Assembly: GCF_009914755.1 (NCBI RefSeq)
Contig: NC_060931.1
Source of the DNA: the human T2T-CHM13v2.0 reference genome, Homo sapiens
DNA length: 64,000 nt
Reading direction: 5' to 3' (one strand)
Shown piece by piece: positions 48,885-51,310 of the stretch; the first letter of the stretch is position 1; each line of letters begins with the position of its first letter. Position numbers and translations under genes: made by a program. A model generated the notes under the pieces. That model made no database searches. It saw nothing but the letters and a program-made list of their open reading frames with translations, and was not told the origin of the DNA.

Positions 48885-51310
48885 ATTTTTATATCCACTG
48901 CGTGTTTATTTCTGATATGTCCCTGAGGCATCCCCTTGCATTCTCTGCTGCACATTGAGGATGAGTTATGGTTCCAAACAAAAAAGCCAAAGGTGACAGC
49001 AACAGAAGCATTCTGGCAGTCTCAGCCCCAGCACCAAGAGTAGTGGCAGAAAAAGTCTCAAGTTAAAGGAGGCAAAGCAGGAAGAACATAAGAATGGAAA
49101 AAGGAAAAATCTGAAAGTTCATTTTTCAACATAGTTTATGGTAATTGCATTATTTGGAATCTGGACGTCAGTGCCATATTTTGTCAGATCTTGTTAAATA
49201 TGAAGCAATTCTGGAAATTGAGGCATTTAATGATGCTGATGGTGCTAAAGTTTTATTAGGACATAAAGGAAGTTCTACTTCAATGTGATTACTTTTATTA
49301 GAAGAAACTAAGGAACATTTAGAGTTAGAAGTAGAGATTCCCACTGAATCAGATTACAAGAATAGTAAAGATATCAAAGAGCAAATTTAGTCCCTTCTCT
49401 ATGAAATAGTAGACACACAACATGTAGAAGACAGCAATAGAGAGAAGATGCACCAGCAAGAAAATAACCACTAGAAAGTGAAGACAGACAGCAAGGAAAT
49501 TAGGTAGATGATAAATTTGAGTACCTGGAAATGAAAACATTTTATAAATAAACTGAAGATACATAACATACACAAGTGAGTTTGTAAGAATATAATCAGA
49601 AAGTGGAAGAGATGCTATATTAGAGAAAAATCTAGATTCCCCTGAAAGATTATGCCATACTATCATGATATAGCACACCAAGATAATAGTCAACAAGCAT
49701 GTGAACTATAGAAAATATGACATAAATTTCAGATACTGCTAGAGAAGAATTAAACACAGGTTTAGAAAAAGTAGTTGTCTCTTTGATAAAGGGCAATAAA
49801 AACTGGTGTATTTCAGACTATGATGACTCCGGCTGATGGGAGTTATTATCAACAGTGATACTTACATTGATTGTACCTACCCTGATATTTTTGTCAGAAA
49901 TTACTATATTAGTTTCAAACATACTACTTAAGAAATAAATTTTTATCTATTTGAAACATGTACCTAATTAATTAGAAAAAAGTTAATGACATTTCAATAG
50001 AAGTTTGAAATGACCATAATGTAGTTATTTCAGTTATCAAAGTACAGGGGATTGGGTTGTAAAATGCCTCTTAGGACACAAGCAAAATATATGAATTGAT
50101 GTATAGTACAAAACACGTCTTAGCACCTTAGACAGGTCATATCATAGCTGCTGTTATTAGACACCTGTTTAAATTTTAGGAAACTTACATAAATTACTAG
50201 CACTTAATTTCAGGCTTGTTTTGCCTCTGGCTAATTAAGCACTCTCACACCAGTTGCTTTAGTATTGCACTATGTTTTTGAAATAAAAGTGAATAAAGCC
50301 TCCCCATTAAGATTGATTTATGATATATAAAATGTTCTCATGGCCTACTTGTTTACAAAGCGTAAACCATTTTCACTGGAATTTACCTATTTATGGCTCA
50401 GAAATAGTTTTATGTTGAAAATATTTATATTTTAGAAAAGGAGATAAACACAACTTCATTCATGAAATAAATATTAGCCTAAAGAATAATAAGAAATGTT
50501 TTCCTTTAAGTGTCAGAGGCAGCATTTGATCAAGTTAACACAGTTTAATTAATTAATTTATTTATTTATTTAAGACAGAGTCTTGCTCTGTCACCCCAGC
50601 GGAGTGCAGCGGCATGATCTTAGCTCACTGCAACCTCTACCTCCTGGGTTCAAGCAATTCTCATGCTTCATCCTCCCGAGTAGCTGGGATTACAGGCATG
50701 TGCCACCACGCCTGGCTATGTTTTGTATTTTTAGCAGAGACAGGTTTCACCATGTTGGCCTGGTTGTTCTCGAACTCCTGACCTCAAGTGATCCACCCGC
50801 CTCGGCCTCCCAAAGTGCTGGGTTTACAGGTGTGAGCCACCATGCCAGGCCAACACTATTTTAAAATAAGGTAATTGTTTTGGTTACTAGGGTCAAAATC
50901 AAAGAGATTATATATTTTTATTATATCTACCTCAAATTGCAATCTAATAATTTCTGCATATGTAGAATAACCCAAAATAATAAGCTGGTAAAATAAGCTG
51001 TAATTTTTCTGATGCAATATTACTGATAGATACAGCACTGATATTGTTGATACAACATTGACATTAATTTGAATAATGTTCATTTATATTCTCAAATTTA
51101 GAACACTATTACTTTCATAAAACAATACTTTTATAAGAAGCTTAGGAGTAAAAGAACTGATAAATAAATAAAGTAAGTTTTACTGGATTTTTTGGTACAC
51201 AATCATTCATAAAATTCTGGGAATTGAGGATCAATTCTGCTGTAGTCAATTTGAATATTTTGTAATTCCATATCTGAATAAATAAAGCTTGTATTTAATT
51301 ATGTGGTAAA
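48885..51310 (+). pseudogene. Processed pseudogene of ASPH (short humbug/junctate-type transcript)
   Basis: Collinear, intronless, stop- and frameshift-ridden matches to recalled ASPH N-terminal peptides: MVPNKKAK (48968), EAKQEEHKNG (49069), T*FMVIALFGIWTSV (49129-49173), DLVKYEAIL..DADGAKVLLG (49187), KEQI*SLLYEIVDTQHVE (49376), VDDKFEYLE (49504), YNQKVEEML (49591). An AT-rich 3'UTR-like tract with AATAAA near 51165 and 51280 follows. Ends are approximate. Confidence 0.85.
50544..50851 (-). mobile_element. AluS inserted in the retrocopy 3'UTR
   Basis: Reverse-complement Alu dimer flanked by AACAC(A/TA)..TTTAA. Confidence 0.92.

What the first reader, a model, noticed from the sequence alone, without database searches (positions are those of the whole stretch)
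48885..51310. Cryptic ancient ASPH ('humbug'-type) retrocopy hidden in SPMIP7 intron 2
Seen: a 2.4-kb non-repeat block interrupts an old L1M ORF1. Manual translation across stops and frameshifts gives ordered peptides MVPNKKAK / EAKQEEHKNG / T*FMVIALFGIWTSV / DLVKYEAIL..DADGAKVLLG / KEQI*SLLYEIVDTQHVE / VDDKFEYLE / YNQKVEEML. Recalled knowledge: these parallel human ASPH MAQRKNAK / ETKHGGHKNG / TWFMVIALLGVWTSV / DLVDYEEVL..DADG..AKVLLG / KEQIQSLLHEMVHAEHVE / VDDRFETLE / CNQDMEEMM, which are spread over many exons in the parent gene. Coding similarity ends near 49820 with no hydroxylase domain and is followed by UTR-like sequence. Inference: this is a retrocopy of the exon-1-initiated, catalytically truncated humbug isoform, not of junctin or full-length ASPH. 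It would then be a fossil record that this isoform was expressed in the germline of an early mammal. No ORF-track entry reveals it, so it could be unannotated.
Basis: partly seen in the sequence, partly recalled or inferred. Interest (0 to 1): 0.8.

Follow-up and report, generated by a model that had tools for sequence, protein, structure and literature searches.

The report
Dead retrocopy of truncated ASPH transcript
This stretch is an old, thoroughly broken, intron-less copy of the short (humbug-type) messenger RNA of the ASPH gene that was pasted into an intron of SPMIP7; it is an ordinary processed pseudogene with no sign of function.

Summary
Window ~48968-51403 (+) is a processed pseudogene of the ASPH-type gene on contig C8 (minus strand).

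- **Spliced origin:** the window matches 11 consecutive parent exons that span about 76 kb in the parent. It crosses all 11 splice junctions E1/E2 to E11/E12 with no intron sequence.
- **Truncated isoform:** it then continues into the parent's alternative terminal exon, which adds two codons and a stop and carries no hydroxylase domain. Homology ends about 15 nt past the parent's AATAAA, followed by a 13-nt A-rich remnant.
- **Reciprocal search:** the parent's 3' UTR finds only three loci in the genome: itself, this window, and a younger partial copy on C16.
- **5' exon:** an exon-1 (P1/humbug) start is favoured over the junctin/junctate first exon, but only moderately.
- **Decay:** 24 indels, 11 in-frame stops, and substitutions even across codon positions. 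K2P is 0.29-0.41. An Alu inserted later.
- **Corrections:** the 3' end is 51390-51403, not 51310. The first ~90 nt are unassigned. About 500 nt of the terminal exon are missing.

The kind is ordinary. This copy is absent from the supplied RefSeq table, but pseudogene catalogues could not be checked.

The parts
48704..48873 (+). 5' flank: decayed L1 ORF1-derived sequence (host repeat into which the copy inserted)
   Evidence: Aligns to L043 1548-1713, 103 of 165 identical, 0 of 300 shuffles as good. The L043 region is named by Pfam as PF17490 (E 1.8e-10) and PF02994 (E 0.004, below cut-off). Pfam finds nothing in the window flank itself.
48874..48967 (+). Unassigned ~94 nt, possibly the decayed 5' UTR of the copy
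   Evidence: No significant match to the parent's 83 nt upstream of the ATG (279 of 1000 shuffles as good) nor to the L1 ruler (154 of 300).
48968..49069 (+). Copy of parent exon E1 coding part (ATG to splice donor)
   Evidence: Anchored global alignment to C8 62138102-62138000: 55 of 100 identical, 0 of 1000 dinucleotide shuffles as good, z 4.2. The rival first exon scores -31, at the null. An unrelated locus scores higher in the scan.
49070..49213 (+). Copy of parent exon E2 (transmembrane segment)
   Evidence: blastn E 1e-17. 108 of 142 identical. PF05279 21.7 bits and 23.8 bits.
49214..49259 (+). Copy of parent exon E3, with a 24-nt deletion
   Evidence: The E3/E4 junction is conserved letter for letter.
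49260..49352 (+). Copy of parent exon E4
   Evidence: 57% identity over 93 columns. tblastn collinear hit to C8 62077399-62077307.
49353..49424 (+). Copy of parent exon E5
   Evidence: blastn 79.7%, E 1e-8..
49425..49549 (+). Copy of parent exon E6
   Evidence: blastn E 1e-5. 69.5% over 118 columns.
49550..49580 (+). Copy of parent exon E7
   Evidence: 61.3% over 31 columns, placed by the chain alignment only.
49581..49635 (+). Copy of parent exon E8
   Evidence: blastn 75.9%, E 6e-4..
49636..49664 (+). Copy of parent exon E9, with 18 nt deleted
49665..49697 (+). Copy of parent exon E10
   Evidence: The best local match in 5 kb of parent intron covers the exon exactly from the AG to the GT.
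49698..49732 (+). Copy of parent exon E11
   Evidence: 77.1% over 35 columns.
49733..49812 (+). Probable remains of parent exons E12 and E13
   Evidence: 49 of 80 identical; 48 of 1000 shuffles as good, so marginal.
49813..49844 (+). Unassigned 32 nt, at the site where about 470-500 nt of the parent's terminal exon are missing
   Evidence: Window 49761-49850 has no significant match to parent 62050017-62049516 (443 of 500 shuffles as good).
49845..50540 (+). Copy of the parent's alternative terminal exon (3' UTR), part 1
   Evidence: blastn to C8 62049515-62048796, E 2e-46. 68.9% identity, K2P 0.41. Genome-wide reciprocal hit E 4e-15.
50541..50860 (-). Later SINE insertion (recognised from memory as an antisense Alu)
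   Evidence: Dozens of related copies (roughly 61-85% identity) in the 200-kb C8 locus. The parent is continuous at 62048796/62048795. Imperfect ~13-bp flanking duplication. No Rfam family match.
50861..51390 (+). Copy of the parent's terminal exon (3' UTR), part 2, up to the poly(A) site
   Evidence: blastn to C8 62048795-62048277, E 2e-43. 76.4% identity, K2P 0.29. Homology stops about 15 nt after the parent's AATAAA. Genome-wide hit E 3e-18.
51391..51403 (+). A-rich remnant of the poly(A) tail
   Evidence: Read directly: 10 of 13 bases are A, immediately after the end of homology.
51422..51541 (+). 3' flank: probable continuation of the same L1 ORF1
   Evidence: Aligns to L043 1836-1954, downstream of the 5'-flank match and in the same orientation. 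73 of 116 identical, 18 of 300 shuffles as good, so marginal.

Best explanation
A spliced, polyadenylated mRNA of the ASPH-type gene on C8 was reverse-transcribed and inserted into an old L1 element in what is now intron 2 of SPMIP7, in the same orientation as that gene. By analogy with other processed pseudogenes, the L1 machinery in the germline did this; that step is inferred.

The mRNA was the short isoform. It starts at exon 1 (promoter P1) and ends in an alternative terminal exon that stops translation two codons after exon 13. This isoform is called humbug in print.

The copy arrived without a promoter and has decayed neutrally since:
- frameshifts and stop codons throughout the coding part;
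- a loss of about 500 nt at the start of the 3' UTR;
- a later Alu insertion.

It has no detectable function.

Shown here: origin from this parent, intron loss, use of the truncating terminal exon and its poly(A) site, and decay.
Inferred: the L1-mediated mechanism, germline expression of the isoform at the time, and an age of roughly 70-150 million years.
For: **Parent identity.** C8 is the only locus with both PF05279 exons (100.7 and 47.1 bits) and PF05118 exons on one strand.

**Parent exons.** They were defined from AG/GT(GC) sites, and the chain E1-E13 is open for 311 codons.

**Intron loss.** Collinear hits cover E2, E3, E5, E6, E8 and the terminal exon, E4 and E10. The chain alignment crosses 11 junctions, with no insertion longer than 3 nt in the window at any of them.

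**3' end.** An acceptor at 62050017 gives two codons and a stop. Homology ends about 15 nt after the parent's AATAAA, then an A-rich remnant follows.

**Uniqueness.** The reciprocal genome search with the parent's 3' UTR finds 3 loci only: the parent, C16 and this window.

**Exon-1 start.** E1 gives 0 of 1000 shuffles as good, z 4.2. The rival first exon scores at the null. [quoted passage not shown]

**Decay.** 24 indels (16 frame-shifting), 11 stops in 237 gap-free codons, and differences of 84/65/75 at codon positions 1/2/3. K2P is 0.29-0.41.

**Later Alu.** The Alu lies where the parent is continuous.
Against: **The exon-1 assignment is the weak link.**
- Identity is only 55%.
- The 83 nt upstream are not significantly like the parent's 5' UTR (279 of 1000 shuffles as good).
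- In a 400-kb two-strand scan, about a dozen loci reach E1's score.
- An unrelated repeat in intron 1 (C8 62122425) scores 7 against 1 for E1.

**Other gaps.**
- E12/E13 are only marginal (48 of 1000).
- The E13/terminal-exon junction cannot be seen, because about 470-500 nt of the terminal exon have no counterpart.
- No convincing target-site duplication was found by eye.
- The poly(A) remnant is only 13 nt.
- About 120 nt of the L1 ruler between the two flank matches are unaccounted for.
- The age rests on a recalled neutral rate, and no other mammal could be examined.
Confidence: 0.85

Rival explanations
1. Same retrocopy, but of the junctate transcript. That transcript starts at promoter P2 with a short alternative first exon and shares all downstream exons and the terminal exon with humbug.
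For: Downstream of E2 the two transcripts would be indistinguishable (isoform relations as in PMC2625362, passages read). The E1 match is weak (55%), and the upstream 83 nt are not significant.
Against: The alternative first exon, located at C8 62113425-62113410 through a recalled 5-residue motif followed by a GT donor, scores -31 against window 48968-49069, which is the null mean. Its 185-nt version scores -42 against -22 for E1. The window has an ATG 102 nt before the E2 junction, where E1 has one at 103 nt.
Confidence: 0.05
2. The copy is 5'-truncated at or near the start of E2, and window 48885-49069 is unrelated filler (template switch, untemplated sequence or a fragment of another repeat). 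The isoform's first exon would then be unknowable.
For: An LTR-like repeat in parent intron 1 (62122425) matches window 48955-49037 better locally (55 of 73, score 19) than E1 does (local score 13). About a dozen loci in 400 kb reach E1's global score. The 5'-UTR part is not significant.
Against: E1 is a pre-specified position, not the best of a scan. ATG aligns with ATG, the spacing is right, and 0 of 1000 shuffles score as well. The two scan outliers are unrelated to each other and match only about 70 gapped columns, as scan extremes do. Truncation exactly at an exon boundary would be a coincidence.
Confidence: 0.08
3. The block is a functional retrogene or exapted element, for example a non-coding RNA or a regulatory or polyadenylation element acting on SPMIP7, rather than neutral debris.
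For: It lies in the sense orientation inside a testis-related host gene's intron and contains AATAAA motifs (and the hub's annotation table).
Against: There is no open frame: 11 stops and 16 frame-shifting indels. Substitutions are even across codon positions. No Rfam family matches in 48000-52000. No RefSeq functional element is listed there in the supplied table. Its own poly(A) signal is mutated (AACAAA).
Confidence: 0.02
4. The similarity comes from the triadin gene, or from a DNA-level (segmental) duplication of ASPH, not from an ASPH mRNA.
For: PF05279 also matches a C6 exon (34.5 bits). I take that gene to be triadin from memory.
Against: The C6 exon region gives local score 11 (45 of 65) against 57 (108 of 142) for the C8 exon. 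Eleven C8 exons and 1.24 kb of C8 3' UTR are collinear with no intron sequence between them, which excludes a genomic duplication.
Confidence: 0.005

Closest known systems
Humbug, the truncated P1-driven isoform of the ASPH (AbetaH-J-J) locus
   Same: Same exon order E1-E11 (probably to E13). Same truncating terminal exon and poly(A) site. No hydroxylase domain (isoform description in PMC2625362, passages read).
   Different: The window copy has no introns and lies on another chromosome. It is about 70% identical, carries 11 stops and 16 frame-shifting indels, lacks about 500 nt of the 3' UTR and has no promoter of its own.
L1-mediated processed pseudogenes in general
   Same: Intron loss, an end at the parent's poly(A) site with an A-rich tail remnant, an unlinked location, and neutral decay.
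   Different: No recognisable target-site duplication. About 120 nt of the host L1 appear to be missing or unrecognisable around the insertion. The 5' end is near full length rather than truncated.
Second copy of the same transcript on C16 (31688912-31700299, minus strand)
   Same: Derived from the same terminal exon and ends at the same poly(A) site.
   Different: Younger (74-87% identity against 62-65% for the window's 3' UTR, by blastn). It covers only the terminal exon (parent 62050003-62048284) and keeps the ~500 nt that the window copy lacks. It is broken up by several later insertions, and one fragment is duplicated.
Junctate and junctin transcripts of the same locus
   Same: They share E2 and further exons. 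Junctate shares the terminal exon (recalled, and PMC2625362 passages).
   Different: Their first exon (C8 62113425-62113410) shows no similarity to the window's 5' part. Junctin would lack the acidic exons E4-E11 that are present here.

Membership tests
Processed pseudogene (retrocopy) | Parent exons joined exactly at splice junctions, with no introns | tested here: met
   Eleven junctions, E1/E2 to E11/E12, are crossed with at most 3 extra nt in the window. The parent exons are spread over about 76 kb. E12/E13 and E13/terminal exon cannot be judged.
Processed pseudogene (retrocopy) | 3' end at the parent's polyadenylation site, followed by a poly(A) tail | tested here: met
   Homology ends at 51390, which is C8 62048277, about 15 nt after AATAAA. 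A 13-nt A-rich remnant follows.
Processed pseudogene (retrocopy) | Target-site duplication flanking the insert | tested here: inconclusive
   None is recognisable by eye in the flanks. The 5' boundary is uncertain within 48874-48967, and the L1 ruler suggests missing rather than duplicated target sequence.
Processed pseudogene (retrocopy) | Located away from the parent, without the parent's promoter | tested here: met
   The copy is on C7 and the parent on C8. The upstream flank is L1 ORF1-derived.
Processed pseudogene (retrocopy) | Disabled reading frame and neutral substitution pattern | tested here: met
   24 indels (16 not a multiple of 3), 11 stops in 237 codons, codon-position differences 84/65/75.
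Humbug-type ASPH transcript as the template | Starts with exon 1 (P1), not the P2 first exon | tested here: met
   For E1, 0 of 1000 shuffles score as well (z 4.2), and the ATG sits at matching spacing. The P2 first exon scores at the null. Support is moderate only.
Humbug-type ASPH transcript as the template | Ends in the truncating alternative terminal exon with its own poly(A) site | tested here: met
   1.24 kb are collinear with C8 62049515-62048277. The acceptor at 62050017 gives two codons and a stop. The first ~500 nt of that exon are absent from the window.
Humbug-type ASPH transcript as the template | No catalytic (Asp_Arg_Hydrox, PF05118) part | tested here: met
   The 6 genome matches to PF05118 are on C22, C8 and C16. 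None is in the window.
Pfam PF05279 Asp-B-Hydro_N | Score at or above the curated cut-off of 23 bits | tested here: inconclusive
   21.7 bits in hmmscan of the read-through frame, and 23.8 bits in the genome scan. This is borderline, as expected for a decayed copy containing a stop.

The most novel reading that the evidence does not exclude
The copy predates the radiation of placental mammals. It would then be a dated fossil showing that the P1-initiated, catalytically truncated (humbug-type) transcript was already made in the germline of stem placentals, with the same terminal exon and poly(A) site as today. It appears to be missing from the supplied RefSeq annotation.
Probability: 0.4. Interest if true: 0.2.

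Novelty: new member of a known kind. Interest (0 to 1): 0.12.

Why it matters
It matters little. Processed pseudogenes number in the thousands in the human genome, and this one shows no sign of function.

Its modest value is threefold:
- **Annotation.** A roughly 2.4-kb stretch of SPMIP7 intron 2 can be labelled as an ASPH-derived processed pseudogene. No such row is in the supplied RefSeq table.
- **Isoform history.** Together with the younger C16 copy, it is independent evidence that the truncated isoform's terminal exon and poly(A) site are old and were used in the germline.
- **Mapping.** It is a possible source of cross-mapping for ASPH 3'-UTR probes or reads, although about 30% divergence makes that unlikely.

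Tried and rejected
**Searches that were too insensitive or hit the wrong thing**
- A DNA search of the genome with window 48960-49840 found only itself.
- A protein search with frame 1 found nothing useful.
- A genome DNA search with 48450-48890 hit only a younger repeat at 48450-48600.
- blastn and tblastn of the flanks against 220 kb of held human DNA gave 0 hits.

**Analyses that failed**
- A word-6 blastn for the small exons was pure noise. I replaced it with de novo exon finding.
- Pfam on the window flanks found no L1 family in any of 6 frames.
- The 5'-UTR alignment was not significant.
- Window 49761-49850 against the start of the terminal exon was not significant, and its best match anywhere downstream of E13 scored only 14.
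- No Rfam family matched.

**Explanations rejected**
- Triadin origin.
- A repeat insertion in the parent as the reason for the missing 500 nt. That stretch is not dispersed, and the C16 copy retains it.
- The intron-1 LTR-like hit as a true relative.

**Literature and earlier notes**
- 'ASPH' with 'processed pseudogene': 21 papers, 10 listed, none on point by title or abstract.
- 'ASPHP1': 0 papers.
- ASPH with retrocopy terms: none of the 10 listed papers contains ASPH.
- C7orf72/SPMIP7 with pseudogene: 3 listed, none on point.
- Supplements and pseudogene databases could not be consulted, so the copy may be catalogued there.
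Full report
**1. The observation.** They switch frames and are broken by stops, as described. A Pfam scan of the three read-through frames gave one relevant hit: PF05279 (Asp-B-Hydro_N) on frame 3 residues 43-69, E = 2e-4, 21.7 bits, just under the 23-bit cut-off.

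**2. Finding the parent.**
- The window's genome is held. A protein search with frame 3 gave a weak hit at C8:62107816-62107926 on the minus strand, 56% identity.
- A genome scan with PF05279 found only 4 places: two adjacent C8 exons (100.7 and 47.1 bits), one C6 exon (34.5 bits) and the window itself (23.8 bits).
- PF05118, the hydroxylase domain, matched 6 places. Two of them are on the same strand of C8, further downstream at 61941270 and 61927142. None is in the window.
- C8 is therefore the one locus with both halves, that is, the ASPH-type gene. I take C6 to be triadin from memory.

**3. Collinearity.** I fetched C8:61960001-62160000 and ran blastn with window 48800-51400. The hits form an ordered minus-strand series:

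| Window | C8 | Identity | E-value |
|---|---|---|---|
| 49069-49212 | 62107926-62107778 | 72.7% | 1e-17 |
| 49172-49260 | 62104785-62104703 | 68.5% | 2e-4 |
| 49359-49424 | 62074857-62074789 | 79.7% | 1e-8 |
| 49426-49530 | 62070609-62070507 | 66% | 1e-5 |
| 49586-49638 | 62067733-62067680 | 75.9% | 6e-4 |
| 49845-50540 | 62049515-62048796 | 62% | 2e-46 |
| 50861-51390 | 62048795-62048277 | 65% | 2e-43 |

The last two abut in the parent. In the window they are separated by 50541-50860, which has dozens of relatives within the same 200 kb. That element is a high-copy SINE, which I recognise as an antisense Alu. It is flanked by an imperfect ~13-bp duplication. tblastn added one more exon, window 49259-49351 against C8 62077399-62077307.

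**4. Parent exon model.** I defined the exons from acceptor and donor sites and reading frame, with no annotation:
- E1: ATG at 62138102, ending at 62138000
- E2: 62107925-62107776
- E3: 62104772-62104704 (GC donor)
- E4: 62077398-62077306
- E5: 62074863-62074789
- E6: 62070616-62070488
- E7: 62068370-62068338
- E8: 62067739-62067683
- E9: 62067171-62067124
- E10: 62066658-62066626
- E11: 62062100-62062059
- E12: 62061740-62061684
- E13: 62057467-62057423

The chain is open for 311 codons. An acceptor at 62050017 would add two codons and a stop, followed by about 1.7 kb of 3' UTR. My exon numbers are operational and differ from the published numbering: a primer that PMC2625362 labels 'exon 5' lies in my E3.

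**5. Junctions.** A global alignment of the window block, with the Alu left out, to this mRNA model places E1 to E11 back to back on 48968-49732. Per-exon identities are 57-87% for E2-E11. The printed alignment shows all 11 junctions E1/E2 to E11/E12 crossed with at most 3 extra nt in the window. For E10, the best local match within 5 kb of parent intron covers the exon exactly from the AG to the GT.

**6. The 3' end.** Homology continues to window 51390, which is C8 62048277, about 15 nt after the parent's AATAAA (AACAAA in the window). It then collapses, and the window continues with a 13-nt A-rich stretch. Searching the whole genome with the parent's 3' UTR finds only the parent, a C16 locus and this window (E = 3e-18 and 4e-15).

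**7. Which isoform.**
- The 3' block is intronic for the full-length gene, and the hydroxylase domain is absent, so the template was a truncated isoform.
[quoted passage not shown] It states that P2 drives AAH, junctin and junctate in excitable tissues, and that humbug lacks the catalytic domain.
- For the 5' exon, I aligned window 48968-49069 to the E1 coding part, anchored at the E2 junction. This gives 55 of 100 identical, ATG on ATG, and 0 of 1000 dinucleotide shuffles as good (z = 4.2).
- The P2 first exon was located at 62113425-62113410 through a recalled 5-residue motif followed by a GT donor. It scores -31, equal to the null mean of -28.
- Against this, the 83 nt upstream are not significantly like the parent's 5' UTR (279 of 1000).
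- Sliding the 102-nt piece over 400 kb (both strands) finds about a dozen loci with E1's score. One intron-1 locus (62122425) scores 7 against 1. That locus looks like an LTR-type repeat (recalled). It is unrelated to the second outlier and matches only 73 gapped columns. I read it as a scan extreme.
- Exon 1 is thus favoured, but only moderately.

**8. What does not fit neatly.**
- E12/E13 are marginal: 49 of 80 identical, 48 of 1000 shuffles as good.
- Window 49761-49850 has no significant match to the first ~500 nt of the terminal exon (443 of 500 shuffles as good).
- That parent stretch is not a dispersed repeat. Its only other relative is a C16 locus, which turned out to be a second, younger copy of the same terminal exon. 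It covers parent 62050003-62048284 at 74-87% identity, is interrupted by later insertions, and has no detectable upstream exons.
- Because that copy keeps the stretch, the stretch belongs to the mature mRNA. Its absence from the window is most simply a deletion. An alternative acceptor is not excluded.

**9. Context.**
- Pfam finds no L1 domain in the window flanks.
- The 5' flank has six weak, decayed relatives in the genome. Four of the five fetched loci match it in a direct comparison (E 1e-7 to 3e-5).
- One of them, L043, is named by Pfam as L1 ORF1: PF17490 at E = 1.8e-10, above its cut-off, and PF02994 at E = 0.004, below its cut-off.
- On that ruler the 5' flank (48704-48873) aligns at 1548-1713 (0 of 300 shuffles as good). 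The 3' flank (51422-51541) aligns at 1836-1954 (18 of 300). 48880-48967 aligns nowhere (154 of 300).
- The block therefore does split an old L1 ORF1. About 120 nt of L1 are unaccounted for, and no target-site duplication is visible.
- By the hub's table the site lies after SPMIP7 exon 2 and on the same strand.

**10. State and age.**
- Over E1-E11 there are 24 indels (16 frame-shifting) and 11 stops in 237 gap-free codons. Amino-acid identity is 46% (108 of 237), and differences at codon positions 1/2/3 are 84/65/75. This is neutral decay.
- K2P distances to the present parent are 0.365 (coding E2-E11), 0.409 and 0.286 (the two 3'-UTR parts).
- With a recalled mammalian neutral rate of about 2.2e-9 per site per year, this gives about 65-95 million years if both lineages drift freely, and more if the parent is constrained. 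I infer roughly 70-150 million years. No other mammalian genome was available to test this.
- The triadin-type exon is rejected as a source: local score 11 against 57. No Rfam family matches in 48000-52000.

**11. Known or new.** The kind is textbook.
- For this instance, the supplied RefSeq table has no pseudogene row here.
- My four literature searches found nothing on point. They cover open full texts only.
- I file it as a new member of a known kind, with low interest.

Noticed in passing
G000:C16:31688912-31700299 (minus strand; loci L038, L039), plus a fragment at 31702169-31702247: A second, younger partial copy of the same ASPH short-isoform terminal exon. It covers parent 62050003-62048284 at 74-87% identity and ends at the same poly(A) site. 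Several later insertions break it up, and its first ~80 nt are duplicated 2 kb upstream. No upstream exons were detected.
   Followed up: partly
window 48450-48600: A younger dispersed repeat next to the old L1. At least 40 copies across the genome share 81-88% identity with this stretch. It lies in the interval NCBI masks (48004-48611). Its family was not identified.
   Followed up: no
G000:C8:62122425-62122322 (minus strand, parent intron 1): An LTR-like repeat (judged from memory) that by chance matches window 48955-49037 better (55 of 73) than the true exon 1 does. It is a trap for anyone assigning the copy's 5' end by best hit.
   Followed up: partly
G000:C8:62104703-62104702 (parent gene): The donor after the exon I call E3 reads GC rather than GT. 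The reading frame into the next exon is intact.
   Followed up: no
window 51540-51750: A TA-rich, low-complexity stretch directly after the L1 3' flank. Its translations are runs of Y, I, L and F.
   Followed up: no
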